DNA of 64,000 nt, from positions 1-64,000 of IMG/VR virus record IMGVR_UViG_3300023174_000080. One strand, 5' to 3'. Numbering within the stretch: position 1 is the first letter of the stretch; every line of letters starts with the position of its first letter. The stretch comes from a virus. The notes under the pieces were generated by a model. That model was given only the letters and a program-made list of their open reading frames with translations, had not been told where the DNA came from and searched no databases. Made by a program: the position numbers and the translations under genes. Of the stretch, positions 1 through 31,423 are shown in pieces.

Positions 1-65
1 AGATTGACAATCTCCAGATTGACGAGTTGTTGCGTTCCCTTCGCAGCTAGGATATAATAACCACC

Positions 66-263
66 ATGACCATCAACGTTAAGAATCGTGACACTGGCAA
101 GCTTGTTTACTGTGGCGATACCATTGTGGGAATCTATAACGAGCCGTGGATTTTTCTTGCTATGTCAAGCCCGATGACAGTGTGGGTGCGAGATCCGATC
201 ACGGGTGCCGTTGTTGACTTTGACCCGACGACTATGGTAATCGACGTGGACGTGGTAGCCTAA
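66..263 (+). CDS. Small hypothetical early protein (leaderless)
   Basis: ORF with TTGCGT(30-35)-17-TATAAT(53-58); ATG 7 nt after -10; no SD. Confidence 0.7.
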   Translation: MTINVKNRDTGKLVYCGDTIVGIYNEPWIFLAMSSPMTVWVRDPITGAVVDFDPTTMVIDVDVVA

Positions 264-273
264 CCTGTAGCCT

Positions 274-343
274 TGGCACGGAGCTTGCACAGCCGCCGCG
301 CCTTGCGCGGCTGGCATTATATCATAATAAAAAAATAAAGCAA
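274..343. repeat. Convergent-promoter palindrome element, copy 1
   Basis: sigma54 TGGCAC-N5-TTGCA (274-289); CAGCCGC/GCGGCTG palindrome (290-313); minus-strand TTGCTT-16-(TG)TATAAT (343-316). Confidence 0.8.
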
Positions 344-388
344 GAGAAAAAAACTAATAATGTCCACCCATCCACGGGCAAACCGCGC

Positions 389-417
389 ATGTTAGTTGAA
401 CTGGCAACGGGAGTCAA
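389..417 (-). promoter_or_regulatory. Additional minus-strand sigma70 promoter
   Basis: Reverse complement reads TTGACT-17-TAACAT. Confidence 0.45.
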
Positions 418-478
418 GAGCGAAAAAAAATGCATCCACCCTCTTGCACGTACACGAAAGCGCGTCTATAATAAGGGC

Positions 479-664
479 ATGACCAACGAAACCTGCAACG
501 GACGGCACACGAAGAATGATGGTTCCTACTGGGTCAATGATGCGCGTGGCATTCCCCTTGCCCGCGTCTGCGCCAAGTGCGCGGAGAAAAAGCTTTCCAA
601 GTATCGGAAGGATGTTCGCACGAACGCGAGCTATTGGGCAGACGAGATTGTTGACGGCGACTAA
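479..664 (+). CDS. Small Cys/His phage protein (DARGIPL..VCxxC), leaderless
   Basis: Start reassigned from 389 to ATG 479, 6 nt after TATAAT(467-472); TTGCAC -35 at 17 nt. Confidence 0.75.
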   Translation: MTNETCNGRHTKNDGSYWVNDARGIPLARVCAKCAEKKLSKYRKDVRTNASYWADEIVDGD

Positions 665-717
665 GGTTCCCCTGTATAATATCCCGGCAGTTAACCCGTA
701 GCACCTGAGAGAAAAAA

Positions 718-1005
718 ATGATCATCTTCCGTCGCCTCATTCGTTCCAAGGGTTCCACGTCTGCGAAGCTTGTCGGTGGACACCGTTTCGCTGTCAGTGT
801 TAAGGAGCTGATCCGTCACGCAAAGCAGACGCGGCACGTCTACGCTTTCATTGACGAGAACGGCAACGAAGGAACGATCCGCAGCGGTGTTCTCATGCGG
901 ACGGTTGATTCCCACGTTCGCAACATCGTGACCGTTGGTGACGCGATCCAGCGTCCCCTGCCTTTCGGTGTGGAGTCAAGCGATATTTTTGGTATCGCTG
1001 CCTAG
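718..1005 (+). CDS. Hypothetical early protein (leadered)
   Basis: ORF; TTGACG-18-TATAAT promoter; leader contains GCAGTTAACCCGTAG. Confidence 0.7.
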   Translation: MIIFRRLIRSKGSTSAKLVGGHRFAVSVKELIRHAKQTRHVYAFIDENGNEGTIRSGVLMRTVDSHVRNIVTVGDAIQRPLPFGVESSDIFGIAA

Positions 1006-1120
1006 TTGACAGCACCTTGGCTCCCGTGCTAGAATATGGCGGGAGCCTTGGCATAGAGGTTGCAGCCGCCCTTCGGGCGTCGGCTGGCACTATTATATCA
1101 TGCCTACGGAATAAAAGCAA
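1006..1120. repeat. Convergent-promoter palindrome element, copy 2
   Basis: TTGACA-18-TAGAAT (1006-1035); sigma54 TGGCAT-N5-TTGCA (1049-1064); CAGCCG..CTTCGG..CGGCTG palindrome (1063-1086); minus TTGCTT-17-TATAAT (1120-1092). Confidence 0.8.
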
Positions 1121-1190
1121 CTAAAAAAAGAAAATAAAAAAGTGGTTCCACCCCCTTGCAAGCCCATGAAAGCGCGGGTATAATATGCAC

Positions 1191-1373
1191 ATGACCCAGA
1201 CCGAGTTTGATTTCGAGGCAGATGATTTTGGCGTGAAGCTGAAGGATCCCTGCGAGTGGTGCGCGAAGCATGAGGCAGCGCACACTGTGGTCAAGCGTGG
1301 GCAGGACACTGGGCTTTGCAATAACTGTGCCGAGGATGATTACATGGATTGGGTTGAACAAATGAACGATTGA
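1191..1373 (+). CDS. CxxC-CxxC zinc-ribbon microprotein, acidic, leaderless
   Basis: CEWC...CNNC; TTGCAA-17-TATAAT; ATG 6 nt downstream. Confidence 0.75.
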   Translation: MTQTEFDFEADDFGVKLKDPCEWCAKHEAAHTVVKRGQDTGLCNNCAEDDYMDWVEQMND

Positions 1374-1405
1374 CGGCACTAAGAAAAAAAGATATAATGA
1401 CCGCC

Positions 1406-1570
1406 ATGACCAAGCCAAAGCGCATCAAGATCCAGCTACACAAGAAGGTGTGCGTCAAGTGTCTGACGCAATGGCAGACCAGCAATAAGGATAGCAAGGT
1501 GTGCCCTTCCTGTGTCAACGACCCTTCAACAATCCTGACGCGGTGCCTTGCAAACATTGTGAAGCTGTGA
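1406..1570 (+). CDS. CxxC-CxxC zinc-ribbon microprotein, basic, leaderless
   Basis: CVKC...CPSC; TTGACG-17-TATAAT; ATG 7 nt downstream. Confidence 0.7.
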   Translation: MTKPKRIKIQLHKKVCVKCLTQWQTSNKDSKVCPSCVNDPSTILTRCLANIVKL

Positions 1571-1583
1571 GAGAATAACGCCC

Positions 1584-1754
1584 ATGAACAACTACGGATA
1601 CGGCTTCAGCATCGGTGACAAGGTTACTACTAACAGCGGGATGTTCAACGGCGTTGCTACCGTGTGGGAATACAGGAAGGAAGGTTATGTTGTTGTCAAG
1701 TATTTTGCTTCCCTGTATCGCGTCCACCATAAGACGCTCCAGCTTGTCAAGTAG
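1584..1754 (+). CDS. Small SH3/KOW-like protein (not in ORF track, 56 aa)
   Basis: Translated by hand: MNNYGYGFSIGDKVTTNSGMFNGVATVWEYRKEGYVVVKYFASLYRVHHKTLQLVK; TTGCAA-17-GAGAAT, leaderless. Confidence 0.7.
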   Translation: MNNYGYGFSIGDKVTTNSGMFNGVATVWEYRKEGYVVVKYFASLYRVHHKTLQLVK

Positions 1755-1760
1755 TATCGT

Positions 1761-1829
1761 TGGCACGGCAGTTGCAAGCCGCCGCAAACGCGGCGGCTGC
1801 TATTATATCATAGCTGAGAATAAAAGCAA
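1761..1829. repeat. Convergent-promoter palindrome element, copy 3
   Basis: sigma54 TGGCAC-N5-TTGCA (1761-1776); AGCCGCCGC-AAAC-GCGGCGGCT (1777-1798); minus TTGCTT-16-TATAAT (1829-1802). Confidence 0.8.
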
Positions 1830-1899
1830 GAATAAAAAGAAAAAAGAAAAAGCGTTCCCCCCCCTTGCGTGCGTCCACGACATCCTGTAGAATAGGCAC

Positions 1900-2031
1900 A
1901 TGACCAAGTTGATCAAGGCAAAGCGGGTTGGCGGTCTTTACTTCCTGTCCATCGGTCGCATCCAGATTTCCTTTTGTGTCAAGCGGAAAGAAAAGAAAAA
2001 GAAGATGTTGACCATCCCTGCCAACCTGTGA
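1900..2031 (+). CDS. Basic microprotein, 43 aa (not in ORF track)
   Basis: MTKLIKAKRVGGLYFLSIGRIQISFCVKRKEKKKKMLTIPANL; TTGCGT-17-TAGAAT; ATG 6 nt downstream. Confidence 0.65.
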   Translation: MTKLIKAKRVGGLYFLSIGRIQISFCVKRKEKKKKMLTIPANL

Positions 2032-2043
2032 GAGAATAAGCAC

Positions 2044-2193
2044 ATGGAAAACAAAAACCTGACCCTGACGGTTGACGAGATCCGCATGATCCGCCTTGCG
2101 CTCGCCTCTCATGTTTTCGGTGCGTCGAAGCAAACGGAAAACAACATTATGAATCTCATGTCGAAGCTTCACAAGGTACTTGACCCGCAGTAG
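2044..2193 (+). CDS. Microprotein, 49 aa (not in ORF track)
   Basis: MENKNLTLTVDEIRMIRLALASHVFG...; TTGACC-18-GAGAAT; ATG 6 nt downstream. Confidence 0.65.
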   Translation: MENKNLTLTVDEIRMIRLALASHVFGASKQTENNIMNLMSKLHKVLDPQ

Positions 2194-2249
2194 AAACCCG
2201 CTGTATAATGTCCCTCGCAGTTAACCCGTAGAACGAAAGAGAAAAAACA

Positions 2250-2486
2250 ATGTCCACTGTCAATGATATCGCGGCGAAGCTCAACAGCTACAAGCGTTCC
2301 AACGGTCAGCGTATGTTCTACGTCACTGACACGGCGATTGTCCTTGACAATCCGGTGGTGAGCGGTAACGAGGTTGCCGCAGAGGTTGAGGGAACCATCC
2401 TGCGTTTCACGCTCGGTGTCAACTGTTTTCAGATGATCCGCACGCGAAAGGTTGAGACTACCGAAACGTGGACGCTGGACGAGTGA
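2250..2486 (+). CDS. Hypothetical early protein (leadered)
   Basis: ORF; TTGACC-18-TATAAT; leader contains GCAGTTAACCCGTAG. Confidence 0.7.
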   Translation: MSTVNDIAAKLNSYKRSNGQRMFYVTDTAIVLDNPVVSGNEVAAEVEGTILRFTLGVNCFQMIRTRKVETTETWTLDE

Positions 2487-2497
2487 GAAAATAAAGC

Positions 2498-2579
2498 TTG
2501 ACAGCTCGCCGAGTCGGTGGCATAATAGCCGCCGATTTCGGCGGCTGCATATTATATCACAAGGAAAAGAATAAAGCAA
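2498..2579. repeat. Convergent-promoter palindrome element, copy 4
   Basis: TTGACA-17-CATAAT (2498-2526); AGCCGCCGA-TT-TCGGCGGCT (2527-2546); minus TTGCTT-17-TATAAT (2579-2551). Confidence 0.8.
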
Positions 2580-2660
2580 TAAAGAAAAGCACGGGAAGAT
2601 AAGAAAAAAAAGACGTGCAGGCTCTTGATTCCCGTAGAGATTCCAGCGTATAATATGGGC

Positions 2661-2792
2661 ATGAACGAGAACAACAGCTGGTGCAAGGATTGCGGCACGG
2701 AGAAGAACCTTGTCATTTTCTCCGAGGCACCAAAGGTTGTCCTTTGCACGGAGTGCGCCATGTGGCGCGACAGCAAGATTGACAAGCGGTAA
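2661..2792 (+). CDS. CxxC-CxxC zinc-ribbon microprotein, 43 aa (not in ORF track)
   Basis: MNENNSWCKDCGTEKNLVIFSEAPKVVLCTECAMWRDSKIDKR; TTGATT-18-TATAAT, leaderless. Confidence 0.7.
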   Translation: MNENNSWCKDCGTEKNLVIFSEAPKVVLCTECAMWRDSKIDKR

Positions 2793-2814
2793 AAAGGAAA
2801 GGTATAATATCACC

Positions 2815-3006
2815 ATGACCAAGAACTGCGACGACTGTGGTGTGAAGCTGCACGGGCAGTGCATCGTTGACGGTGGCAAGCTGATGTGCTTGGACTGCGC
2901 GGAAGCGTTCAACGATGAACAGGAGTTCGGCATGGTGGACGACCGGGAGGAAACGGACGGGGATATCCACGATGATCTGGTGGATATGTATTACAACGAA
3001 TATTAG
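2815..3006 (+). CDS. CxxC-CxxC zinc-ribbon microprotein with acidic tail
   Basis: CDDC...CLDC, D/E-rich C-terminus; start reassigned to ATG 6 nt after TTGACA-18-TATAAT. Confidence 0.75.
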   Translation: MTKNCDDCGVKLHGQCIVDGGKLMCLDCAEAFNDEQEFGMVDDREETDGDIHDDLVDMYYNEY

Positions 3007-3113
3007 TTGACTCCTGCTGGCGGGTGAGCTATAATAGCCGCCCGCTGCGCGGGCTGGCACACTTATTGCCAGACATTCAGTACTATTATATCAAACAGCC
3101 GCCGTGTTGTCAA
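3007..3113. repeat. Convergent-promoter palindrome element, copy 5
   Basis: TTGACT-17-TATAAT (3007-3035); AGCCGCCCGC..GCGGGCT; sigma54 TGGCAC-N5-TTGC (3055-3069); minus perfect TTGACA-17-TATAAT (3113-3085). Confidence 0.8.
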
Positions 3114-3183
3114 GCTAAAAGCGCAGGAAAAGAAAAAAAGATATGCGCTTGCATATGTCCCCCGTTCGTGAGAGTATGTGCGT

Positions 3184-3549
3184 ATGACCAACAACAACAT
3201 GACCATCGAGATCCACGCGGGCGACGAGCTTCAGGAGATCAGTGTGCCCACCAAGTGGGAGATCTGCGAGCGTTGCGAGGGCAACGGCAAGCACGACCCT
3301 GAGTCGTTCTCCAACGGCTTCACCGCGAGCGAGTTCAATGACCTCTTCGACGACGAGGAGGAGCGCGAAAACTATTTCAATGGCAAGCACGATGTTGCGT
3401 GCCGCGAGTGCAACGCCTCGGGCAAGGTGCGCGTGCCTGACCTTAGCTCTCTCACGGACGAGGAGCGCGAAGGCTACGAGCGTGCGCTGGAGGACCGTGC
3501 TGACTACGAGCGCGAGTGCCGCTACGAGCGCCGGTACCTCGGGTACTAG
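3184..3549 (+). CDS. DnaJ-type zinc-finger phage protein
   Basis: CERCEGNG...CRECNASG; TTGCAT-17-GAGTAT; ATG 6 nt downstream. Confidence 0.75.
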   Translation: MTNNNMTIEIHAGDELQEISVPTKWEICERCEGNGKHDPESFSNGFTASEFNDLFDDEEERENYFNGKHDVACRECNASGKVRVPDLSSLTDEEREGYERALEDRADYERECRYERRYLGY

Positions 3550-3609
3550 TTGCCCCTGTCAAGGGGGTGGTGGTTGGCTAAATAAAAAAAATAAAAGCCT
3601 CCCACCCCC

Positions 3610-3707
3610 TTGACGAATATCCACAGGTATGGTAAACTAGCCGCCTTGCAAAGCAAGGCGGGAGGCTGGGACACCTATATTATATCATGGGTGAATAGGT
3701 CGCGCAA
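3610..3707. repeat. Convergent-promoter palindrome element, copy 6
   Basis: TTGACG-17-TAAACT (3610-3638); AG-CCGCCTTGC-AAA-GCAAGGCGG; minus TTGCGC-17-TATAAT (3707-3679). Confidence 0.78.
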
Positions 3708-3783
3708 GAAATAAAAAAAGATATTCCACCTCTTGTCCACCACCATCCTGTCAAGGTAAGCTAGAGACATAGGAGAAAAGATT

Positions 3784-4194
3784 ATGGCTAGCAAAGACTA
3801 CGAGAAGAACGATAAGCTGTATGCAAAGATTGAGCAGAGGATTGAACAGGTTGCGCTCATCATGCATAGATTAAATAACATGTGGAGCTTCACAGGTACT
3901 CAGCTGTCCTATGCCTGTGACAACTACATGCGTCCCCGTGACCTTGCTACACTAGAGGAGCGTGTGCATTGCTTGGTGCAGGCTTATGCTGCACTAACAA
4001 AGAGCGTGACCTTGTATACATCTCAGGGTTATGTGCTGCCACAGTTCTGGGATGAAACGTTTGGCAAGCTAGGACAAGATATAATCTTTACCTTGCCCGA
4101 GATGCTGCATGTCAAAAAAGAAAAAGCCTTCTATAAAAATTTGCAAAAGACCTTCACCCTTGCGTGGGGGGAGTCCCCCTCCCTCCCCCTCTAA
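3784..4194 (+). CDS. Hypothetical protein
   Basis: 136-aa ORF with AGGAG SD. Confidence 0.65.
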   Translation: MASKDYEKNDKLYAKIEQRIEQVALIMHRLNNMWSFTGTQLSYACDNYMRPRDLATLEERVHCLVQAYAALTKSVTLYTSQGYVLPQFWDETFGKLGQDIIFTLPEMLHVKKEKAFYKNLQKTFTLAWGESPSLPL

Positions 4195-4282
4195 GGGGCG
4201 TATTTCCGGAAAATAAGTCTCTATGATATTGACATTGACCCTAAAAGTGCTCTATGGTCGTTTTTAAATTCCGGGCCAAAAA

Positions 4283-4543
4283 ATGAAAAAATTCAAGTTC
4301 AAAGTTGGTGATCTTGTTGCCTGTTACAACGATCCCGACAATTTTAAAATAATACTCGGTTGGGTTGTAAGCCGTTGGAAAAATAGACATGGTGAAAATA
4401 ATTACCATATTCATTGGAGCGACATAGCCGATAATCCCGATTATATCCAATCACCTATAGATGAATATGGTGTGAATGAATGTTATAATTTGCTACAAAA
4501 AGCTATCGAAACAGATACATGGTCGGGCAAAAAAATTCTGTAA
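4283..4543 (+). CDS. Small SH3/KOW-like protein (GDLV family)
   Basis: KFKVGDLV...LGWVV...YHIHW pattern. Confidence 0.7.
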   Translation: MKKFKFKVGDLVACYNDPDNFKIILGWVVSRWKNRHGENNYHIHWSDIADNPDYIQSPIDEYGVNECYNLLQKAIETDTWSGKKIL

Positions 4544-4564
4544 AAAATTTTTTGGAAATTTTTC

Positions 4565-4828
4565 ATGAAAGATTCAAAATACAACATAGGAGATCTTGTA
4601 GCTACTTATGTTGAGCTTGATGATGCAAATGATAAATTATTATTAGGATGGATAGTTAGTAAAAACAAATATGTCACCATAGATAACAAAATGACATGGA
4701 TATATGATATAGAATGGGCCGATGGTGAAATGGAAGATGAAGTGGAAGAAGACGTTGTTTATAATGTCATAAAAGCATATCGGGAAGCAAAGCGTTACAA
4801 GCGTTGGACGCGAAGTAGATGGATATGA
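4565..4828 (+). CDS. Small SH3/KOW-like protein (GDLV family)
   Basis: KYNIGDLV...LGWIV...YDIEW. Confidence 0.7.
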   Translation: MKDSKYNIGDLVATYVELDDANDKLLLGWIVSKNKYVTIDNKMTWIYDIEWADGEMEDEVEEDVVYNVIKAYREAKRYKRWTRSRWI

Positions 4829-5544
4829 TAACTACCGAAGATGAATTAATAAAAAGATGCGTAGAATTAGTGAACGGACCCCCTCTGCCGGTGATTGGCA
4901 AGGGGGATAAACGTTTTGGCATGACGCTAGAGAGTTATATGAATATCGATATAAATTCTCGCGTAACAAGCGATATTGAAAGTCTTGATTTAGAAATAAA
5001 AGCAAAAATAAAAAAGGAAACAGACTTAACGCTTTTCTCAACAAAGCCAGCTTTTCTACGCTTGAATAGCGATGAGTTCTTTCGTATTCATAACAAATTA
5101 AAAGATAACACTGAATCACTATACACAGACGTAGGCGGCGGTGTGAACTCTTTTGGTTTGCAAATAAGCATCCAACAAACGGCTGAAGACATAGAAATGA
5201 TTATTTATGATGCTGAACGGAATATAAACCGCGCTTCAATCAACTTTGGTCACATCAAGCATATAGCAAGGATGAAAATGCGGAACCTCTTGGTCGCCTA
5301 CGGCGACAGATTGGAGGTTGCGGGCGTCGAACATGTCCGGTTTGATTCAGTGCATATTCATCAAAATTTGAATTTGACGAACGAAAAGATTCGTGACTTT
5401 CTACTTAATAATAAGATGGTTTATTCTTTCAGACAGCGGAAGCGTCATGGGAAATATAAAGACCATGGAAGTGCGTTCCGTTTGACGGATCCAAAATATT
5501 TGAAAGAATTATATAACAATTATGAAGCAATAGAACGTAAATGA
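4819..5544 (+). CDS. MvaI/BcnI-family PD-(D/E)XK restriction endonuclease-like protein
   Basis: GxTLE..MNIDINS..SD..LEIK...LTLFS..P and C-terminal DHGSAFR motifs typical of the family. Confidence 0.75.
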   Translation: MDMITTEDELIKRCVELVNGPPLPVIGKGDKRFGMTLESYMNIDINSRVTSDIESLDLEIKAKIKKETDLTLFSTKPAFLRLNSDEFFRIHNKLKDNTESLYTDVGGGVNSFGLQISIQQTAEDIEMIIYDAERNINRASINFGHIKHIARMKMRNLLVAYGDRLEVAGVEHVRFDSVHIHQNLNLTNEKIRDFLLNNKMVYSFRQRKRHGKYKDHGSAFRLTDPKYLKELYNNYEAIERK

Positions 5545-5744
5545 GAGATGATATCCCAATCGGAACTCTGGTTTCCTTGAGCGGTGAAGATATAGGCGTT
5601 GTTGTTGATCACCATTATATAAAAGCTTGGCCCGATGAAAGTATAGATAATATAAAATATAAAGTTATCTATAAAGTTAATATCATCAATAAAAATTTAT
5701 ATAAATATTGCTATTCATACGAGATGGTAATATTAAGTGAGTAG
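5541..5744 (+). CDS. Small SH3/KOW-like protein
   Basis: IPIGTLV..IGVVV..YKV..YSYEM. Confidence 0.6.
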   Translation: MRDDIPIGTLVSLSGEDIGVVVDHHYIKAWPDESIDNIKYKVIYKVNIINKNLYKYCYSYEMVILSE

Positions 5745-5931
5745 GCAATTTCATATAGGCGATCTTGTACACTTCAAGATGGATAATGCATATTTTGGTC
5801 TTTGTATAGTTAAAGGCTTTGGAAAAAATATTTTTAAAGATGGTCAATATCAAATAATGAATTGTGCCACTGGTGAGGTATATATAGCTTTTGAATATGA
5901 GTTGTTTTCTCCCGATGAGTTCTATTTATAA
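5737..5931 (+). CDS. Small SH3/KOW-like protein
   Basis: FHIGDLV..GLCIV..YQI..FEYEL. Confidence 0.65.
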   Translation: MSRQFHIGDLVHFKMDNAYFGLCIVKGFGKNIFKDGQYQIMNCATGEVYIAFEYELFSPDEFYL

Positions 5932-5945
5932 AACTAATTATATAC

Positions 5946-6176
5946 ATGAGTCGTAACCTTAACGAATATGTATATCCTTATAGAAAAATTAAGATTGGTA
6001 GCTTGGTTGAGGTGCGAATCATAAAACGCAAATTAGATCTTGCTATAGTTGTTGATCGAAATGTAGGCTTGCGTCAAAAAGATCATTGGTATGTTGTTCA
6101 TAGCATTTTTGAAGATCGTCAATACGCTGCATATCCAAATGAATTAAAAATACTTAGCGGAGAAACCGAAGATTAA
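5946..6176 (+). CDS. Small SH3/KOW-like protein
   Basis: IKIGSLV..LAIVV..YVV..YPNEL. Confidence 0.65.
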   Translation: MSRNLNEYVYPYRKIKIGSLVEVRIIKRKLDLAIVVDRNVGLRQKDHWYVVHSIFEDRQYAAYPNELKILSGETED

Positions 6177-6241
6177 ATTTTTTGGTTTTCTATTAAAAAA
6201 TCAACTATTTATAGTTATATTTGTTGAAAAAGGGAAATAAT

Positions 6242-6535
6242 ATGAAAATTACAAAAGATTATTTGCGTCAAGTCATTCGTGAAAGCTTAGAAGAAGGTAA
6301 CAGAAACCCCATTAGAAAAAAATTTGTAAAAACATTTCCTACGGGGGAATTTGATAATCCTGATATAAATCCGAAAGATGTAGATCCTATGATAGATTTA
6401 ATGAATGTAAGTGGTATGGAGGAAGATGAATATGAAAAATACTCAAAACTTCATGACTCTTTTATGAAAATTCCCGCTATTAAAAAAATGTGGAATGAAT
6501 TCGTTGCAAAGAAAAAACAAGAAATTAGTGAATAA
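6242..6535 (+). CDS. Hypothetical protein with MKITK..LRQVIRES N-terminal motif (putative virion-internal)
   Basis: N-terminus shared with next gene; preceded by ACTATTTA motif and AAGGG SD. Confidence 0.65.
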   Translation: MKITKDYLRQVIRESLEEGNRNPIRKKFVKTFPTGEFDNPDINPKDVDPMIDLMNVSGMEEDEYEKYSKLHDSFMKIPAIKKMWNEFVAKKKQEISE

Positions 6536-6541
6536 ATTATC

Positions 6542-6838
6542 ATGAAACTTACAAAATCCTATATTAAACAATTAATACGCGAATCAATAGATGAAGTTGT
6601 TCGTATGGATCCGCGTGAAGATCCCGAAGGAACTTATGGGGTAGACCCAACTGGCGAATTAAGTCGTGAAGCACGTAATACAGATGATGAAGGCCCCGTA
6701 GAGTTAAAATTTAATAATTGGTTGAAAACAGAATTAGCAGAATTGATTGTTTCTGAGGATCATCGAGCAATTCTTGAAGCAATAAGGGATGCCTACATGG
6801 CAACCTATGGCGAAACACCTGAATCTTCATTAAAGTAA
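6542..6838 (+). CDS. Hypothetical protein with MKLTK..IKQLIRES N-terminal motif
   Basis: Paralogous N-terminal helix motif. Confidence 0.65.
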   Translation: MKLTKSYIKQLIRESIDEVVRMDPREDPEGTYGVDPTGELSREARNTDDEGPVELKFNNWLKTELAELIVSEDHRAILEAIRDAYMATYGETPESSLK

Positions 6839-6844
6839 TAAGAT

Positions 6845-6905
6845 ACCCGCACTGCCTCTGCCCCCCTGTTGTATGGCGGCACGCCCACTGTTGGCGGGTT
6901 TTTTA
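6845..6905 (+). terminator. GC-rich stem-loop with U tract (probable intrinsic terminator)
   Basis: ACCCGC...GCGGGT outer stem with inner TGCC/GGCA, followed by TTTTTT. Confidence 0.5.
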
Positions 6906-6927
6906 TTATCTAAAAACTACTTATAGT

Positions 6928-7128
6928 ATGTTAAACAGACCTTGTTACGTAAAAATTGGAGATTTCGTAAGCACTAAAAAATTTGATGGTGTTTATGGTT
7001 ATGTAACGTGGATAGATGAAAACAGCGAAACAGGTGAATACTACGTAGAGGTTCATCATGACGATGAAGCTGATCCTCTTTATTTTTATGACAATGAGTT
7101 GAATGTCATGAGAATGGAAAATGAGTAA
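6928..7128 (+). CDS. Small SH3/KOW-like protein
   Basis: VKIGDFV..YGYVT..YYVEV..YDNEL. Confidence 0.65.
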   Translation: MLNRPCYVKIGDFVSTKKFDGVYGYVTWIDENSETGEYYVEVHHDDEADPLYFYDNELNVMRMENE

Positions 7129-7357
7129 AGATCATTTATTAGTTCACTCTGTAGGCGATCTAGTATTAAGTAGAGATAAGGATAACAAAATAATATTAGG
7201 TTTTATAATAGGTAGTTTTGCTGGTTTTTCTGGTACCTATTACGAAGTAGAATGGTTACATGGAAGTGGATATATGTATTATGGTTATTACGACATAATC
7301 AAGATGAAAGGTGAATTATTAAAATTTAAAGAGGAAAAAGGGATTGAACGAACATAA
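7121..7357 (+). CDS. Small SH3/KOW-like protein
   Basis: HSVGDLV..ILGFII..YEVEW. Confidence 0.65.
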   Translation: MSKDHLLVHSVGDLVLSRDKDNKIILGFIIGSFAGFSGTYYEVEWLHGSGYMYYGYYDIIKMKGELLKFKEEKGIERT

Positions 7358-7580
7358 TGTAGGAGATTTATTACTATCTTATACATTTGAAGGAAAAGCA
7401 GTCTTAGGAGTTATAAGAAAAGAAGAGATTTCTCCTATTGACTTTACCCTGAACCTCTATGATATAATGTGGCTAGAAAAGGAAGAAGATATAATAGTTA
7501 GCGGATATTACACATATTCTACTGTGAAAAGTTTTAAAAAAAATCTTTTTGATTATCTATACAATTATGACAAAACATAA
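7344..7580 (+). CDS. Small SH3/KOW-like protein
   Basis: HNVGDLL..VLGVI..YDIMW. Confidence 0.65.
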   Translation: MNEHNVGDLLLSYTFEGKAVLGVIRKEEISPIDFTLNLYDIMWLEKEEDIIVSGYYTYSTVKSFKKNLFDYLYNYDKT

Positions 7581-7719
7581 AGATATATTAGAATTGACAT
7601 TTTACTATTTTATTGCTTTGCTGTTCATAGCTTTAGCAACATATTTTGCATTAACGATTCCTAATACAAAGCCGGAACCTAAGTATAAAAATACTCTACA
7701 ACGCGATATAAATCCATAA
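7567..7719 (+). CDS. Single-TM microprotein, 50 aa (not in ORF track)
   Basis: MTKHKDILELTFYYFIALLFIALATYFALTIPNTKPEPKYKNTLQRDINP; fills the gap before the SLT gene. Confidence 0.5.
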   Translation: MTKHKDILELTFYYFIALLFIALATYFALTIPNTKPEPKYKNTLQRDINP

Positions 7720-7722
7720 TTT

Positions 7723-8361
7723 ATGAGAAAATTATTACTTGCTATAGTTACCCTGATGTGTACTGCCGTCGCTCCTGCGCCAATTATGAAGCCTCTTGCA
7801 TGGGAACAACCGGGAAAACCGGGGCGGCAAAAATGGAGTGAACATACTTTCCAGAATATATATCGTAACTTCGATAAGCTCGATAAAGCGATAGATATAC
7901 AATATTTTTGTCCTGAGTACAACAATCTAAACCGTGACGAACGTGTTAATGCTTGGGCACAGCTTATAGCTGCTATAGCATGGTACGAAAGCGGTTGGAA
8001 CCCCCGTGCCCGTGCGTTACAGCCGTCTTTCGGCTATGACAAGATAACGGGTGAAACTGTTGTGGCAGAAGGATTATTTCAACTTGGATATATGGATTCG
8101 CTGTGGCGAGATTATTGCGATTTCGATTGGTATGGGGATAGAAATCTAAATGACGATGATTTAAACCGTACCATGATTAATCCGCGTAACCAAATACGGT
8201 GTACGGTTGGCATCCTAGCAGACCAAGTACAGCGCCATGGGCGCATAGTGATACCAAGTGGGGCGTACTGGTCTGTGCTCATGGAAGGGCATCGTAATCA
8301 ACGTATAGACGGTATACGGCGTATGGTGATGCGTATAAAGGGATGTCTTAACGAGGAGTAG
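7723..8361 (+). CDS. Secreted lytic transglycosylase (SLT/lysozyme-like)
   Basis: Signal peptide; IAWYESGWNP catalytic Glu motif; GLFQL; P..QIRC.V.IL. Confidence 0.75.
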   Translation: MRKLLLAIVTLMCTAVAPAPIMKPLAWEQPGKPGRQKWSEHTFQNIYRNFDKLDKAIDIQYFCPEYNNLNRDERVNAWAQLIAAIAWYESGWNPRARALQPSFGYDKITGETVVAEGLFQLGYMDSLWRDYCDFDWYGDRNLNDDDLNRTMINPRNQIRCTVGILADQVQRHGRIVIPSGAYWSVLMEGHRNQRIDGIRRMVMRIKGCLNEE

Positions 8362-22528: not shown

Positions 22529-23302
22529 ATGTCTAATCATATATCTTTTTCTGCTTTAAAGATTTGGAATGACTGTCCTTTTAAATATAAGTTAATTTAC
22601 GTAGATAGTGTTCAAAAATTTCGTGGAAGTGAACATACAGCTTTTGGTACTGCTTTACACGAAGCTTGTGAAAAAAAATTATTAGATAATAATATAGATG
22701 AAGTTGAATGCTTTAATTCTAAATTTGAAGAAGAATTAAAGAAAATTCCTTCTGATATAAATGTAGATAATAAACTTATTACTGAAATGAAAGAGCAGGG
22801 AAAGCAGCTATCTACAATGGCACTTCCCGCTCTTAAAGAAAAGTTTGGCAACTTTAAAGTATTATCTGCCGAAGAAGATATTCTTGAAGCAATCAATAAA
22901 ATCCCAGAGCTAAGTTATAATTTTAAAGGATATATTGATTTAATTCTTCAAACTGAAGATGGAAAAATTCATATTCTAGATTGGAAAACCTGCGCTTGGG
23001 GTTGGGATGCTAAAAAGAAGAGCGATCCAATGATTACATACCAGCTCACTTTTTATAAATACTTCTATGCTCAAAAACATAAGGTAGATCCAAAAAATAT
23101 TGAAACATACTTTGCTCTACTTAAGCGTACAGTAAAAAAAGATAATGTAGAAATATTTCGCGTAACCAGCGGTGACAAAAAAACAGAAAATGCATTTAAC
23201 TTATTAACAAAAGCGCTTTATAGTATTAATAAGAATTTTTTCCCAAAAAATCGCTTAAGTTGTAAATATTGCGAATTTAACAACACAAAGGAATGTCCTT
23301 AA
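22529..23302 (+). CDS. Cas4/RecB-like PD-(D/E)XK nuclease with Fe-S cysteines
   Basis: SFS..CP, GTALH, GYIDL, ILDWKT, QL..Y, CxxC...C. Confidence 0.85.
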   Translation: MSNHISFSALKIWNDCPFKYKLIYVDSVQKFRGSEHTAFGTALHEACEKKLLDNNIDEVECFNSKFEEELKKIPSDINVDNKLITEMKEQGKQLSTMALPALKEKFGNFKVLSAEEDILEAINKIPELSYNFKGYIDLILQTEDGKIHILDWKTCAWGWDAKKKSDPMITYQLTFYKYFYAQKHKVDPKNIETYFALLKRTVKKDNVEIFRVTSGDKKTENAFNLLTKALYSINKNFFPKNRLSCKYCEFNNTKECP

Positions 23303-24282
23303 TGAAAACAGCCGTCATAACAGGTATTACAGGGCAAGATGGAAGCTACCTTGCTGAATTATTATTAGAAAAAGGTTATAAAGTAATAGGTCTAGTGCGT
23401 AGAAGCGCCATGGAAGATAAAAAATTTTATAACATAAATCATCTTCTACAAGATCCTAATTTAGTTTTAGAAAATGGGGATTTAACTGATTCCCCTTCTT
23501 TATGGAGAATCATAAAAGAATATAAACCAGATGAATTTTACAATCTTGCTGCACAAAGCCATGTAGGCGCATCTTTTACCTCCCCAGAAAGCACTTTAGA
23601 AATAAATGCTACTGGGGTTTTAAATTGTCTAGAAGCAATTCGTAATTTAAAGCCTGATACAAAATTTTATCAAGCTTCTACTAGCGAAATGTTTGGAGAT
23701 AATATGAATGCTCCTCAAAATGAAGAAACAGTATTATCTCCTGTTTCTCCATACGCTTGTGCAAAAGTATATGCTCATAATTTAGTTATTAACTATCGTA
23801 AAGCATATAATTTATTTGCATGCTCTGGTATTCTTTTTAATCACGAATCTCCTCGTCGTGGCGAACAATTTGTAACTAGAAAAATTACAAAAGCAGCGGC
23901 ACGAATTAAAATTGGTTTACAAAATGAATTACGTTTAGGAAATTTAGATGCTAAACGGGATTGGGGATATGCAAAGGAATACGTAGAAGGAATGTATTTA
24001 ATGCTACAGCATGAGTCACCAGACGATTATGTACTTGGTACGGGAATAACACACACTATTAGTGAATTTATTACTTGCATATCTGATATTGCTGGTTATA
24101 ATTTATTTAATCATGTAGTTATTGATGATAAATATAAACGTCCTAGTGAAGTTCCTCTATTGCTTGCCGATCCTTCAAAAGCAAAAAGAGTATTAGGATG
24201 GGAACCAAAAACTAATCTAAAACAACTAGCAGAATTAATGTATAATTCTGATCTAGAAAAGGAAAAAAATAATGTCAAATAA
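23302..24282 (+). CDS. gmd: GDP-mannose 4,6-dehydratase
   Basis: ITGITGQDGSYLAE, AAQSHV, QASTSEMFG, YACAK, NHESPRRG, RDWG. Confidence 0.95.
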   Translation: MKTAVITGITGQDGSYLAELLLEKGYKVIGLVRRSAMEDKKFYNINHLLQDPNLVLENGDLTDSPSLWRIIKEYKPDEFYNLAAQSHVGASFTSPESTLEINATGVLNCLEAIRNLKPDTKFYQASTSEMFGDNMNAPQNEETVLSPVSPYACAKVYAHNLVINYRKAYNLFACSGILFNHESPRRGEQFVTRKITKAAARIKIGLQNELRLGNLDAKRDWGYAKEYVEGMYLMLQHESPDDYVLGTGITHTISEFITCISDIAGYNLFNHVVIDDKYKRPSEVPLLLADPSKAKRVLGWEPKTNLKQLAELMYNSDLEKEKNNVK

Positions 24283-25513
24283 AAAAATAAAGATCTTAAC
24301 TTTATCTGATCATCCACTTAGTCCTAGTGGTGTTGGTAGTCAAACTAATTATATACTTCAAGGTCTTCTAAAAACTGGTAAATATCAAATTATTTCTCTT
24401 GGTGGTGCGATTAAACATCAAGATTATAGACCAGTAAAATTTCACGAATTTGGAGATGATTATATTATCATTCCAGTTGATGGATACGGAACTCCAGAAT
24501 TGATTCGTACAATTTTAATGAAAGAAAAGCCTGATATTCTTTGGATGATGACAGATCCACGTTTTTATACATGGCTTTGGAATATGGAACAAGAAATACG
24601 TCCAAACATCCCAATTGTTTATTATCACGTATGGGATAATTATCCATATCCAAAGTTTAATCGTTCTTTTTATTTATCTAATGATAAAATTGCTACCATT
24701 TCAAAGCTTACCAGCGATATTGTTCGTGTAGTAGCACCAGAAGTTGAAGAACAATATATTCCTCATGCAGTAAGCCCAGAACTGTTTAAAATTCTTGATG
24801 AAAAAGAATACTCTCATTTACGTATGAAAGATAAGACGTTATTCTTCTGGACTAATCGGAATGCTCGTAGAAAGATGAGTGGAAGCGTAGTTTGGTGGTA
24901 TAAAGAATTTCTAGATAAAGTTGGACATGATAAAGCTTTCTTATTAATGCATACTGATCCAAAAGATCCACATGGTCAAGATCTTGTAGCTATTGCAGAA
25001 GAGCTTGGACTTACAAAAGAAAATTTTGCTATTTCTGCCGGTAAAGTACCAGCAGTTGATATGGCAAAATTTTATAATGCCGCTGATTGTACAATAAATA
25101 TTAGTGATGCAGAAGGGTTTGGCCTTTCTTGCTTAGAAAGCTTGTCATGCGGAACACCAGTTATAGCTAATAAGACAGGCGGTATGCAAGATCAGTTAAC
25201 TGATGGAGTGGACACATATGGAATCCTTATAGAGCCTTCTAGCCGTGCGGTGATTGGTTCACAAGATGTACCATATATTTATGAAGATCGCGTAAGTAAT
25301 ACTGATGTTGTTAATGCAATGATAAAAATTCATAATATGACGCGAGAAGAACGCAAGGCGCTTGGAAAAAAGGGATATGATAATGTTCAAAAGAACTTTA
25401 ATTTCCAAACTTTCCAAGAAACTTGGGATAAACTTCTAAGTGAAGTTCATGAAAAATATGGTTCTTGGGAAACACGCAAGGGATATAAATCTTGGAGCGT
25501 AAAGGAATACTAG
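24272..25513 (+). CDS. Glycosyltransferase family 4
   Basis: NRNARRK, AEGFGLSCLESLSCGTP. Confidence 0.88.
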   Translation: MSNKKIKILTLSDHPLSPSGVGSQTNYILQGLLKTGKYQIISLGGAIKHQDYRPVKFHEFGDDYIIIPVDGYGTPELIRTILMKEKPDILWMMTDPRFYTWLWNMEQEIRPNIPIVYYHVWDNYPYPKFNRSFYLSNDKIATISKLTSDIVRVVAPEVEEQYIPHAVSPELFKILDEKEYSHLRMKDKTLFFWTNRNARRKMSGSVVWWYKEFLDKVGHDKAFLLMHTDPKDPHGQDLVAIAEELGLTKENFAISAGKVPAVDMAKFYNAADCTINISDAEGFGLSCLESLSCGTPVIANKTGGMQDQLTDGVDTYGILIEPSSRAVIGSQDVPYIYEDRVSNTDVVNAMIKIHNMTREERKALGKKGYDNVQKNFNFQTFQETWDKLLSEVHEKYGSWETRKGYKSWSVKEY

Positions 25514-25514
25514 A

Positions 25515-26720: not shown

Positions 26721-26721
26721 G

Positions 26722-27915: not shown

Positions 27916-27916
27916 T

Positions 27917-28684
27917 ATGAAGAAAAAAATTGCATTTTGCACTTATGTTTCTGATGATAAGATTGTATATTTTGGTTTATTAAAGATGCTATCATCTTTT
28001 AAAAAATTTCATCCCGATATTCCAATTTATGTTTTAACTAATAAGCATATATTTAATGAAATAAGAAAATTTCCAATATTTAATAGTTTTTATTATTTAA
28101 ATCCATTAATGTCAATAACATTAGCGGATAAATATGAAACTGTAGTGCATATAGATGCCGATTGTATTGTTACTGATAGATTAGAAGAAATATTGCAGTG
28201 CGACTATGATGTAGCCATAGTCAGAAATAATAGCGACTTTAAAACTGCCGGTATGGGTCCACCGGAAACTGCTAATGGATTAATAGATGTATTTAAATAT
28301 GCTAATTGTGGTTTAATAGCTTCTACTAAAAAAGAATTTTGGGAAGATTGGATTCAAGAAAATGTTAAATGTATTAATAAGTATAGACAACACGAACAAG
28401 ATATAGCTAATATATTGCTTTCTCAAGGAAAATATAAAATAAAAATTTTAGATTCTATTGATAATAACTTATACTATGGTGTCGCTAATGCCTATGGTTC
28501 ACATACGCATTGGGATAGTTGGAAGCATATAATAATTGGTGATAATAACAAGTTATATTTAAATAATAAATTAATCAAAGTTCTTCATCATGCTGGTGGC
28601 TTTGTTAATGAAAAATTAAATTTAGATGATTTATTTTCCCATGAAGTTTCTCGTTACTTAAAAGATTTATGTGAGGATTTATAA
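27917..28684 (+). CDS. GT-A fold glycosyltransferase (GT8-like)
   Basis: HIDAD, NCGL, EQD, HHAG motifs. Confidence 0.75.
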   Translation: MKKKIAFCTYVSDDKIVYFGLLKMLSSFKKFHPDIPIYVLTNKHIFNEIRKFPIFNSFYYLNPLMSITLADKYETVVHIDADCIVTDRLEEILQCDYDVAIVRNNSDFKTAGMGPPETANGLIDVFKYANCGLIASTKKEFWEDWIQENVKCINKYRQHEQDIANILLSQGKYKIKILDSIDNNLYYGVANAYGSHTHWDSWKHIIIGDNNKLYLNNKLIKVLHHAGGFVNEKLNLDDLFSHEVSRYLKDLCEDL

Positions 28685-28685
28685 A

Positions 28686-29345: not shown

Positions 29346-29357
29346 AATTTCATAAAA

Positions 29358-30943: not shown

Positions 30944-30945
30944 AA

Positions 30946-31422: not shown

Positions 31423-31423
31423 C

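What the first reader, a model, noticed from the sequence alone, without database searches (positions are those of the whole stretch)
274..3070. Consensus sigma54 (-24/-12) promoters in a phage early region
Seen: TTGGCACGGAGCTTGCA (273-289), TTGGCATAGAGGTTGCA (1048-1064), TTGGCACGGCAGTTGCA (1760-1776) and CTGGCACACTTATTGC (3054-3069), all with the exact TGGCAY-N5-TTGC spacing. None lies directly in front of a gene. Established: sigma54 holoenzyme forms stable closed complexes until an enhancer-binding ATPase acts. Inference: the sites could be sigma54-RNAP decoys or roadblocks, or make early expression respond to host nutrient or developmental state. They point to a sigma54-using host.
Basis: partly seen in the sequence, partly recalled or inferred. 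Interest (0 to 1): 0.75.

Follow-up and report, generated by a model that had tools for sequence, protein, structure and literature searches.

The report
Sigma-54 sites in phage promoter cassettes
Three of the reported sites are conserved docking sequences for the bacterial alternative sigma factor sigma-54, built into the repeated promoter and hairpin cassettes that separate the tiny early genes of an uncultured lake phage related to T4.

Summary
TGGCAY-N5-TTGC occurs 5 times in the 118,946-bp record. All 5 lie on the + strand within 274-3069, against a local expectation of 0.03.

The sites differ in kind. Three of them (273-289, 1048-1064, 1760-1776) are one conserved element. Across four phage lineages, 13 instances give 10 distinct 17-mers with TTGGCA and TGC invariant and the spacer free. 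The fourth site (3054-3069) is a lineage-specific palindrome. A fifth, unlisted site (547-561) is a by-product of coding sequence.

The three conserved sites sit in repeated promoter/stem-loop cassettes. These resemble the PeSL elements of T4-type phages, and they lie in a 50% GC block of a 30% GC genome. Each site takes the slot that sigma-70 promoters hold in sister cassettes, directly against a GC palindrome that spans the predicted start site.

My best reading (0.45) is that they are enhancer-dependent rightward promoters. The main rival (0.25) is that they are silent sigma-54 polymerase docking sites that compete with the overlapping and convergent sigma-70 promoters.

The host is unknown. 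There is only a weak lead to Verrucomicrobiota, which do carry rpoN. I found no activator gene and no RNA data.

This scan has already noted sigma-54 motif arrays in many other uncultured phages.

The parts
273..289 (+). Type I sigma-54-type site 1, TTGGCACGGAGCTTGCA. It follows the stop codon of gene 66-263. Predicted start about 300.
   Evidence: Orthologs are kept with other spacers: L122 273 (same), L126 7161 (AGGGG), L277 12880 (GGGGA).
291..316 (.). GC palindrome (hairpin B1) abutting site 1.
   Evidence: -19.8 kcal/mol; loop at +1..+5 of the predicted start.
316..343 (-). Convergent minus-strand sigma-70 promoter Pb1 (TTGCTT, 16 nt, TG-n-TATAAT). On the + strand it reads as the box ATTATATCA ... 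AAGCAA.
   Evidence: Read. The box family is listed. The same layout occurs in all six cassettes of the window.
444..481 (+). Proximal sigma-70 promoter Pc1 (TTGCAC, 17 nt, TATAAT), with the ATG 6 nt after the -10 box (leaderless gene 479-664).
   Evidence: repeat families D3, D5.
547..561 (+). It is a by-product of the codons for RGIPLA.
   Evidence: It is broken in L122/L119 (TGGTAT) and in L126 (CGGCAT, read at the matching place of the near-identical L121), and present in L277 13152.
1006..1047 (+). Sigma-70 promoter Pa2 (TTGACA, 18 nt, TAGAAT). A stem (GGCTCCCG/CGGGAGCC) brackets its -10 box (hairpin A).
   Evidence: The stem covaries between cassettes and lineages (CTGCCCA/TGGGCAG, TCCCTG/CAGGGA, GGTGCCCA/TGGGCAC).
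1048..1064 (+). Type I site 2, TTGGCATAGAGGTTGCA, 12 nt after Pa2's -10 box. Predicted start about 1075.
   Evidence: Orthologs: L122 1067, L126 7945 (same), L277 13669 (spacer GGGTG). Metagenome variants A1055G and A1057T fall in the spacer only.
1061..1089 (.). GC palindrome B2 (contains a TTCG loop).
   Evidence: -14.2 kcal/mol; loop at -3..-1.
1092..1120 (-). Convergent minus-strand sigma-70 promoter Pb2 (TTGCTT, 17 nt, TG-n-TATAAT).
1760..1776 (+). Type I site 3, TTGGCACGGCAGTTGCA, just after the stop of gene 1584-1754. Predicted start about 1787.
   Evidence: Ortholog L126 8567 is TTGGCACGGTTGGTGCA. The cassette is absent from L122.
1777..1798 (.). GC palindrome B3 (9-bp stem).
   Evidence: listed as terminator-like; -24.0 kcal/mol; loop at -1..+3.
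1802..1829 (-). Convergent minus-strand sigma-70 promoter Pb3 (TTGCTT, 16 nt, TG-n-TATAAT).
2498..2579 (.). Sister cassette without a sigma-54 motif. Sigma-70 promoter Pa4 (TTGACA, 17 nt, CATAAT) abuts palindrome 2527-2546, followed by convergent Pb4.
3054..3072 (+). Fourth reported site, CTGGCACACTTATTGC. It lies after the cassette palindrome and is itself a palindrome, CTGGCA-N7-TGCCAG. It is lineage-specific.
   Evidence: It is absent from the matching cassettes L122 2563 and L126 9880.

Best explanation
Sites 273, 1048 and 1760 are genuine sigma-54 (RpoN)-type -24/-12 promoter elements, kept by selection. They are one component of the repeated promoter/stem-loop cassettes that separate the tiny early genes in a GC-rich, recombination-prone block of a T4-related myovirus. 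These cassettes resemble the PeSL elements of T4-type phages. In each cassette a rightward promoter abuts a GC palindrome, so initiation would fall inside the palindrome. Read-through RNA from the upstream gene would carry the whole hairpin and tend to stop there (inferred). RNA started at the cassette's own promoter would lack the 5' arm and run on into the next cassette (inferred). In some cassettes this slot holds a sigma-70 promoter, in some the sigma-54 element, and in some both. I therefore read the sigma-54 elements as alternative, enhancer-dependent rightward promoters that let host sigma-54 polymerase transcribe the next small genes when a host activator is active. Shown: the motif, its conservation, its slot and its geometry. 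Inferred: sigma-54 binding, firing, and the identity of the activator.
For: Five matches, confined to 274-3069 of 118,946 bp, against a local expectation of 0.03. The related 75-kb record G001 has 2 matches, both in its first 1.1 kb. 13 Type I instances in four lineages (window; L122; L126 group; L277/L068, about 73% identical) give 10 distinct 17-mers. TTGGCA is 10/10, Y at -21, R at -20, -18..-16 free, T-15 9/10, TGC 10/10, A/T at -11. In three window-versus-L126 orthologous pairs I counted by eye 1 change in 36 motif positions against 5 in 15 spacer positions. Natural variants at 1055 and 1057 fall in the spacer. Internal control: the intragenic match at 547 is broken in 2 of 3 other lineages. 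The motif sits 0-2 nt before the palindrome in sites 273, 1048, 1760 and L126 5654, 7161, 8567. The stem starts at -14..-8 and the loop lies at -3..+7 of the predicted start in 12 of 12 instances folded. Sister cassettes put a sigma-70 -10 box directly against the same palindrome. In relatives some sites have no convergent promoter and lie 58-59 nt before an ATG (L126 5654; L126 2318, the latter with a Shine-Dalgarno sequence). The strict TTGGCACG-N4-TTGCW pattern occurs 9 times (control 1) in five rpoN-carrying genomes totalling 23.7 Mb, against 2 times in 3.8 kb here. Precedent: phage YuA has a sigma-54-like promoter with a mapped start (PMC10914365, passage seen). PeSL variants built on another promoter class (PmSL) are described (PMC4122927, passages seen).
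Against: There is no expression data: no RNA run holds the stretch. The host is unidentified, so rpoN presence is unproven. No Sigma54_activat or Sigma54_DBD gene was found in the 119-kb record or in three related fragments, though these are 9-65% complete. I did not search systematically for enhancer sites and noticed none. The would-be melting region (-11 to +3) is very GC-rich, which is unfavourable for opening. In the window, a transcript from each site must pass a strong convergent sigma-70 promoter before reaching a gene that already has its own promoter and no Shine-Dalgarno sequence. One relative carries the motif inverted (L126 6451) and one carries a face-to-face pair (L126 2318/2351), which is awkward for simple promoters. 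The cultured relatives Mel-JY01, immuto and LR756508 have 1, 0 and 0 matches.
Confidence: 0.45

Rival explanations
1. The sites bind sigma-54 polymerase but are not meant to fire. A long-lived closed complex parked at the cassette border would compete with the overlapping rightward sigma-70 promoter. It would also block RNA polymerase coming from the convergent leftward promoter, shielding the upstream gene from antisense transcription. This is.
For: At site 1048 the -24 GG lies about 8 nt after the predicted start of the sigma-70 promoter at 1006-1035, so the two footprints overlap. Every Type I site in the window faces a consensus extended -10 promoter 27-37 nt downstream. C at -12 is 10/10 and the GC-rich palindrome starts right after it. 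In E. coli, sigma-54 polymerase represses sigma-70 promoters by competing at overlapping sites, and all such sites keep C-12 (PMC4551910, passages seen). No activator gene was found. Inverted and face-to-face copies exist in L126.
Against: The sites hold the same slot and orientation as working-type sigma-70 promoters in sister cassettes. Some relatives' sites lack any convergent or overlapping promoter and precede a gene at an ordinary leader distance. Elongating polymerases often displace closed complexes (general knowledge, recalled).
Confidence: 0.25
2. The bipartite motif is read by something other than sigma-54. Candidates are a phage or host DNA-binding protein, or the machinery that recombines the cassettes. 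It could also act in RNA next to the hairpin. On this reading the likeness to the sigma-54 consensus is coincidental.
For: The motif always lies beside the cassette palindrome. Cassette-sized deletions whose joints lie in the conserved cassette DNA occur in natural populations (joints 317->1114, 1090->1818, 1115->1801), and cassette-level indels separate the window from L122. TGGCA also recurs at the 3' foot of the palindrome (GGCTGGCA) and as TGGCA...TGCCA inverted pairs (site 3054; L126 2318/2351). The PeSL authors speculated that a protein might target the stem-loops (PMC2839356, passage seen).
Against: The match to the sigma-54 consensus covers about 12 informative positions with exact spacing, including non-core ones (C/T -21, G/A -20, T -15, A/T -11). 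I know of no other factor with this specificity (recalled). The observed joints lie in the leftward promoter box, not in the motif.
Confidence: 0.15
3. There is no function. The three sites are copies of one ancestral cassette spread by duplication, and the rest are chance matches in GC-rich DNA.
For: Cassettes 1-3 lie 709-775 nt apart and share long repeat families. Site 3054 and site 547 are indeed not conserved.
Against: Spacers, palindrome interiors and flanks have diverged while the motif positions have not, across lineages down to about 73% identity. The local chance expectation is 0.03.
Confidence: 0.05

Closest known systems
PeSL / PmSL cassettes of T4-type phages (Arbiol et al. 2010, PMC2839356; Comeau et al. 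2014, PMC4122927; passages and one abstract seen)
   Same: Repeated intergenic cassettes in a variable block of small orphan genes of a T4-related myovirus. They have near-consensus sigma-70 promoters with an A/T-rich upstream tract. A G/C stem-loop overlaps or abuts the -10 box. Cassette-sized indels occur between close relatives. Variants on a second promoter class (Mot-box PmSL) are known.
   Different: Here some cassettes carry a sigma-54-type -24/-12 element. 'sigma54' and 'RpoN' occur 0 times in both papers. Here every full cassette also has a convergent leftward promoter, many genes are leaderless, and the block is 20 points richer in GC than the rest of the genome. The phage is only distantly related to the described ones (large terminase about 34% identical to T4-like cyanophages, 44% to the nearest cultured phages).
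Bacterial sigma-54 (RpoN) -24/-12 promoters (consensus TGGCACG-N4-TTGCW, recalled from Barrios et al. 1999, not seen here)
   Same: GG and GC exactly 10 bp apart. Flanking consensus positions are matched in 10 of 10 distinct sites.
   Different: No enhancer or activator was identified. A GC palindrome spans the start site. A consensus sigma-70 promoter faces the site. The density (3 conserved sites in 1.5 kb) is far above that of bacterial genomes.
Sigma-54-like promoter P015 of Pseudomonas phage YuA (Putzeys et al. 2024, PMC10914365, passage seen; it cites Ceyssens et al. 2008, not seen)
   Same: A phage using the host's sigma-54 promoter type beside sigma-70-type promoters.
   Different: YuA is a siphovirus with a single such promoter and a mapped start. 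Here there are several copies inside shuffling cassettes, and no transcript data.
Repressive, non-firing sigma-54 sites in E. coli (Schaefer et al. 2015, PMC4551910, passages seen)
   Same: Sigma-54 sites overlap or converge on sigma-70 promoters. C at -12 is kept.
   Different: Those are scattered chromosomal sites shown by ChIP and RNA-seq. Here the arrangement is a repeated designed module in a phage and is untested.

Membership tests
Sigma-54-dependent promoter | GG (-24) and GC (-12) dinucleotides exactly 10 bp apart | tested here: met
   13 of 13 Type I instances.
Sigma-54-dependent promoter | Extended consensus around both elements (YTGGCACGr-N3-TTGCW; consensus recalled) | tested here: met
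   In 10 distinct 17-mers: TTGGCA 10/10, Y-21 10/10, R-20 10/10, T-15 9/10, TGC 10/10, W-11 10/10.
Sigma-54-dependent promoter | Host encodes RpoN | not testable with these tools
   The host is unknown. Lead only: the phage GDP-mannose dehydratase is nearest to Verrucomicrobiota (55 of the best 80 hits, 53-60% identity), and 5 of 5 such genomes have Sigma54_DBD. The Bacteroidota -7 box is not enriched.
Sigma-54-dependent promoter | An enhancer-binding AAA+ activator and its upstream sites | tested here: inconclusive
   PF00158 gave 0 matches in G000-G003, but these records are 9-65% complete and a host activator would suffice. I did no systematic enhancer search.
Sigma-54-dependent promoter | rpoN-dependent transcript starting 11-13 nt after the GC | not testable with these tools
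   No RNA holder listed.
PeSL-type promoter/stem-loop cassette | Strong sigma-70-like promoter with an A/T-rich upstream tract, repeated in intergenic DNA | tested here: met
   20 promoter-like sites against 4.3 expected in 1-4500. Repeat families D1-D6.
PeSL-type promoter/stem-loop cassette | G/C stem-loop overlapping or next to the -10 box | tested here: met
   Stems bracket the -10 box and covary. The palindrome abuts the -10 box in cassettes 4-6.
PeSL-type promoter/stem-loop cassette | Flanks orphan genes in a variable region and marks indel borders between close relatives | tested here: met
   Cassette-level indels between the window and L122. Joints that skip 685-796 nt between cassettes in metagenome contigs. 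10 early proteins have no Pfam or PHROG family above threshold.
PeSL-type promoter/stem-loop cassette | Carried by a T4-type myovirus | tested here: inconclusive
   T4-like core genes are present (large terminase, portal, major head, sheath, baseplate wedge, UvsX-like, gp46/47-like). The lineage is distant.
Repressive sigma-54 site (E. coli class I/II) | Site overlaps the footprint of an active sigma-70 promoter | tested here: inconclusive
   The geometry is met for site 1048 and its orthologs. It is not met for 273 and 1760, which have no upstream sigma-70 promoter. Activity is untested.

The most novel reading that the evidence does not exclude
The palindrome centred on the start site is part of the sigma-54 element. 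In supercoiled phage DNA it would extrude as a cruciform whose foot lies right after the -12 GC and whose loop is the start site. That would give sigma-54 polymerase a ready-made fork junction and a pre-opened start. The phage would then have either an enhancer-independent sigma-54 promoter or a very stable polymerase 'lock' that gates the facing sigma-70 promoter according to how much sigma-54 polymerase the host has. The same motif-plus-AGCCGCC-palindrome pairing in an unrelated 130-kb viral contig (L251/L275) hints that the coupling is not peculiar to one lineage.
Probability: 0.1. Interest if true: 0.85.

Novelty: new variant of a known kind. Interest (0 to 1): 0.55.

Why it matters
Phage early transcription is usually described as running on the host's main sigma factor or on phage polymerases. 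I found sigma-54 promoters in phages documented only for YuA in the papers I searched.

Here the sigma-54 element is a swappable part of a mobile regulatory cassette, interchangeable with sigma-70 promoters. If it fires, early 'takeover' genes are tied to a host signalling route that needs an ATP-driven activator. If it does not fire, it would be a designed use of a silent polymerase complex as an insulator.

Both readings can be tested with standard E. coli sigma-54 reagents, because the consensus is universal. The motif also narrows the host range: hosts without rpoN, such as cyanobacteria, become unlikely although the nearest cultured relative infects Microcystis.

Tried and rejected
Chimeric assembly of a 50% GC piece onto a 30% GC phage: rejected. 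The same junction is present in independent contigs of three further lineages.

N4-like virion-polymerase hairpin promoters (suggested by the 3503-aa ORF): rejected. That ORF has no Pfam or PHROG match, and the phage has a baseplate and a sheath.

Bacteroidota host (a lead from earlier notes of this scan and from the Flavobacterium phage relative): not supported. TAnnTTTG is not enriched in intergenic DNA (0.92 against 0.84 per kb), whereas TATAAT is enriched 3-fold.

Cyanobacterial host (nearest relative Mel-JY01): could not be tested. The control genome Synechococcus elongatus has no Sigma54_DBD.

Host from close homologs of an early protein in 185,579 species genomes: no relative found. The Atlas look-alikes are viral.

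PIN-PhoH against 61 Verrucomicrobiota genomes gave 41-50% identity for its full-length matches. Without other phyla for comparison this says nothing.

The motif-plus-GCCGCC composite as a host-type design: found in 5 of 121 Verrucomicrobiota genomes, control 1. Among 83 distinct viral matches, 5 have the palindrome, and 3 of those are from this lineage.

Known RNA families in 1-4500: only CrcZ at 16.9 bits against a cut-off of 95.

RNA evidence: no RNA holder listed. Only DNA contigs could be laid.

Nearest GenBank phage DNA: no blastn match to 1-8000.

Supplementary files of the papers were not opened. The PeSL sequence figures and tables and the E. coli sigma-54 site lists, which might bear on the comparison, were not seen.

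Full report
**What the record is**

The window is the first 64 kb of a 118,946-bp linear viral record that CheckV rates about 65% complete. It encodes these T4-type genes:
- baseplate wedge, sheath, portal and major head proteins
- large terminase
- a UvsX-like recombinase
- a fused gp46/47-like nuclease

Its nearest GenBank phages are distant. Large terminase is 44% identical to Microcystis phage Mel-JY01 and Flavobacterium phage immuto, and about 34% to T4-like cyanophages.

Bases 1 to about 3800 are 50% GC. The remaining 115 kb average about 30% GC, within 21-42% per 2-kb bin. This junction is not an assembly artefact. Independent contigs of three further lineages join the same GC-rich block to AT-rich phage genes:
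- L122/G001
- the L126 group
- L277/L068

In L126 the block runs from about 2.2 to 11 kb and is flanked by AT-rich small genes on both sides.

**The observation**

TGGCAY-N5-TTGC occurs 5 times in the window, always on the + strand, at 274, 547, 1049, 1761 and 3055. Whole-window shuffles gave a mean of 0.18, and 0 of 100 reached 5. There is no further match in the other 55 kb of the record. Simulations that keep the composition of bases 1-3800 gave a mean of 0.03.

The related 75-kb record G001 has 2 matches, both in its first 1.1 kb. The cultured relatives and a 484-kb uncultured phage have 1, 0 and 0.

It is also true that none stands directly before a gene.

**The sites are not all alike**

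Sites 273, 1048 and 1760 ('Type I') lie 0-2 nt before a GC palindrome that begins AGCCGCC or GCCGCC. I collected 13 Type I instances from the four lineages. They comprise 10 distinct 17-mers:

| Position | Content |
|---|---|
| -27 to -22 (TTGGCA) | invariant, 10/10 |
| -21 | C or T |
| -20 | G or A |
| -18 to -16 | free |
| -15 | T in 9 of 10 |
| -14 to -12 (TGC) | invariant, 10/10 |
| -11 | A in 9, T in 1 |

This is the sigma-54 consensus as I recall it (TGGCACG-N4-TTGCW), including its weaker positions.

Orthologous sites keep the motif and change the spacer:
- Window 273 has GGAGC, L126 7161 has AGGGG, L277 12880 has GGGGA.
- Window 1048 has AGAGG, L277 13669 has GGGTG.
- Metagenome contigs differ from the window at 1055 and 1057, both in the spacer.
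- Over three window-versus-L126 pairs I counted 1 change in 36 motif positions against 5 in 15 spacer positions (by eye).

The unlisted match at 547 gives a useful control. It lies in the codons for RGIPLA of the 61-aa gene and is broken by synonymous changes in L122 and L126, though kept in L277.

The fourth reported site (3054) follows the palindrome instead of preceding it. It is missing from the matching cassettes of L122 and L126. It is itself a palindrome, CTGGCA-N7-TGCCAG. I do not count it with the other three.

**The setting**

The block holds six repeated intergenic cassettes. Read left to right, a full cassette has five parts.

1. A rightward promoter slot. It holds the sigma-54 motif in cassettes 1 and 3, a sigma-70 promoter in cassettes 4-6, and both in cassette 2.
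2. The GC palindrome.
3. A convergent leftward promoter with consensus TTGCTT or TTGACA, 16-17 nt, then TG-n-TATAAT. On the + strand this reads as the box TATTATATCA.
4. An A-rich tract.
5. A rightward sigma-70 promoter whose -10 box ends 6-7 nt before the ATG of a tiny gene, which would give leaderless mRNA.

The scan found 20 sigma-70-like sites in 1-4500 against 4.3 expected. Where a sigma-70 promoter fills the slot, a second stem brackets its -10 box. That stem covaries between cassettes and lineages: CTCCCG/CGGGAG, CTGCCCA/TGGGCAG, TCCCTG/CAGGGA, GGGGGG/CCCCCC.

This is the anatomy of PeSL elements of T4-type phages. Those have strong sigma-70-like promoters with an A/T-rich upstream tract and poly-G/poly-C stem-loops that overlap the -10 box. 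They lie between orphan genes of hyperplastic regions and mediate cassette shuffling (PMC2839356 and PMC4122927, passages seen).

Shuffling is visible here too. L122 lacks window 1579-1909, which is a 56-aa gene plus cassette 3. Metagenome contigs show joints that skip one cassette unit (317 to 1114, 1090 to 1818, 1115 to 1801). The ten early proteins I scanned have no family above threshold, and several are CxxC zinc ribbons.

**Geometry**

Taking the C of the -12 GC plus 12 as the start, the palindrome's stem begins at -14 to -8. Its loop lies between -3 and +7 in 12 of 12 folded instances of this lineage. In sigma-70-only cassettes the -10 box abuts the same palindrome, so the start would fall 2-5 nt before the loop.

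Both promoter kinds would therefore initiate inside the palindrome. A natural reading, which is inferred, is a promoter nested in a terminator or attenuator. RNA from the upstream gene carries the full hairpin followed by the U-rich UAUUAUAU tail, and two of these hairpins are listed as terminator-like. The cassette's own RNA lacks the 5' arm and continues.

This is why I rank 'alternative promoter' first. Other points also favour it:
- L126 5654 and L277 10603 have the motif, the palindrome and then directly a rightward sigma-70 promoter, with no convergent one. For L126 5654 the ATG lies 58 nt after the predicted start.
- L126 2318 lies 59 nt before a Shine-Dalgarno sequence and the ATG of a 31-aa basic ORF.

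**Points against, and the main rival**

- The region to be melted is almost pure G+C.
- In the window, every Type I site faces a consensus extended -10 promoter 27-37 nt downstream.
- The next gene already has its own promoter and no ribosome-binding site.
- At site 1048 the motif starts about 8 nt after the predicted start of a sigma-70 promoter, so the two polymerases exclude each other.
- L126 carries one inverted copy and one face-to-face pair.
- No activator or RpoN gene is present in the four incomplete records.

Passages of Schaefer et al. 2015 (PMC4551910) report that sigma-54 polymerase represses E. coli sigma-70 promoters by binding competition, possibly also through convergent transcription, and that such sites keep C at -12.

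I give lower odds to a different binding factor or a recombination signal, because the match to the sigma-54 consensus is so complete. I give very low odds to neutral duplication.

**Host**

No close DNA relative exists among named phages, and no early-gene relative exists in 185,579 species genomes. The phage's GDP-mannose 4,6-dehydratase is 53-60% identical to its best 80 genome hits. 55 of those are Verrucomicrobiota by record title. All 5 such genomes I tested carry Sigma54_DBD.

This is a lead only, because the enzyme is widely conserved and the scan was limited by its patterns. The Bacteroidota -7 promoter box is not enriched in the AT-rich part's intergenic DNA, while TATAAT is.

**Comparison with what is known**

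The papers I found mention sigma-54 and phage promoters together mainly for YuA, which has a sigma-54-like promoter with a mapped start (PMC10914365, passage seen), and for a putative sigma-54-like protein of Pectobacterium phage Q19 (PMC7693777, passages seen).

The two PeSL papers contain neither 'sigma54' nor 'RpoN'. A search for sigma54, T4-like and early promoter together returned no paper.

This scan's own notes list many sigma-54 motif arrays in other uncultured phages: 158 notes in at least 145 genomes hold the search words. I did not test those notes. I therefore class the finding as a new variant of a known kind, namely a sigma-54-type version of a PeSL-like cassette.

Noticed in passing
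window 1-3800 versus 3800-64000; L126 2200-11000: A 50% GC block sits inside a phage whose other 115 kb average about 30% GC. The block is conserved with both AT-rich flanks in relatives. It could reflect tuning of immediate-early DNA to a GC-richer host, or escape from silencers of AT-rich DNA.
   Followed up: partly
window 316-343, 1092-1120, 1802-1829, 2551-2579, 3085-3113, about 3680-3710 (minus strand): Every cassette has a consensus leftward promoter (TTGCTT/TTGACA, 16-17 nt, TG-n-TATAAT) firing into the palindrome and the upstream gene's 3' end. Its product and purpose are unexplained. TTGCTT also resembles a T4 Mot box.
   Followed up: partly
window 51-68, 467-481, 1179-1193, 1393-1408, 1888-1902, 2651-2663, 2803-2817: -10 boxes end 6-7 nt before the ATG, often ATGACC, of tiny genes. 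This implies leaderless mRNAs with one promoter per gene.
   Followed up: no
L126 2317-2351: Two sigma-54-type motifs face each other with their -12 elements 4 nt apart (TTGGCACGGAACCTGCA and, on the other strand, TGGCATAGCTCTTGC). A palindrome AGGGGTTAAACCCCT precedes them. A 31-aa lysine/arginine-rich ORF with a Shine-Dalgarno sequence follows.
   Followed up: no
L251 600-700 and L275 1680-3020 (one 130,685-bp viral contig): An unrelated, GC-rich viral contig carries arrays of sigma-54-type motifs. Some are directly followed by the same kind of AGCCGCC...GGCGGCT palindrome, interleaved with repeats of TTTTGGCAG.
   Followed up: partly
L241 61-85 and 12063-12087: A 12,147-bp viral contig has the same sigma-54-type site with identical flanks in inverted orientation at both ends. 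These look like inverted terminal copies.
   Followed up: no
window 1 and G001 (L122) 1: Two independent assemblies, 89% identical over the first 1.2 kb, start at the same base, in mid-cassette. This is either a real genome end or a shared assembly break at a repeat.
   Followed up: no
G000 4200-118946, intergenic DNA: ACTA[T/A]TTA occurs 13 times in 3.3 kb of intergenic DNA against 5 times in about 108 kb of coding DNA. It is probably the phage's own middle or late promoter motif.
   Followed up: partly
window 2661-2792 and 2815-3006: The 43-aa and 63-aa zinc-ribbon early proteins give weak, sub-threshold hits to DksA/TraR-type zinc fingers (E 0.02-0.04). If real, they could act on promoters with the GC-rich discriminators seen in the cassettes.
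   Followed up: no
window 23293-33566: A sugar-nucleotide and glycosyltransferase cluster: two GDP-mannose-dehydratase-like enzymes, an epimerase, three GT4 transferases and a DegT aminotransferase.
   Followed up: partly
window 317-1114, 1090-1818, 1115-1801 (joints in coded runs X4, X5): Natural variants lack exactly one cassette-plus-gene unit, with the crossovers in the leftward promoter box. This is cassette shuffling in lake populations.
   Followed up: partly
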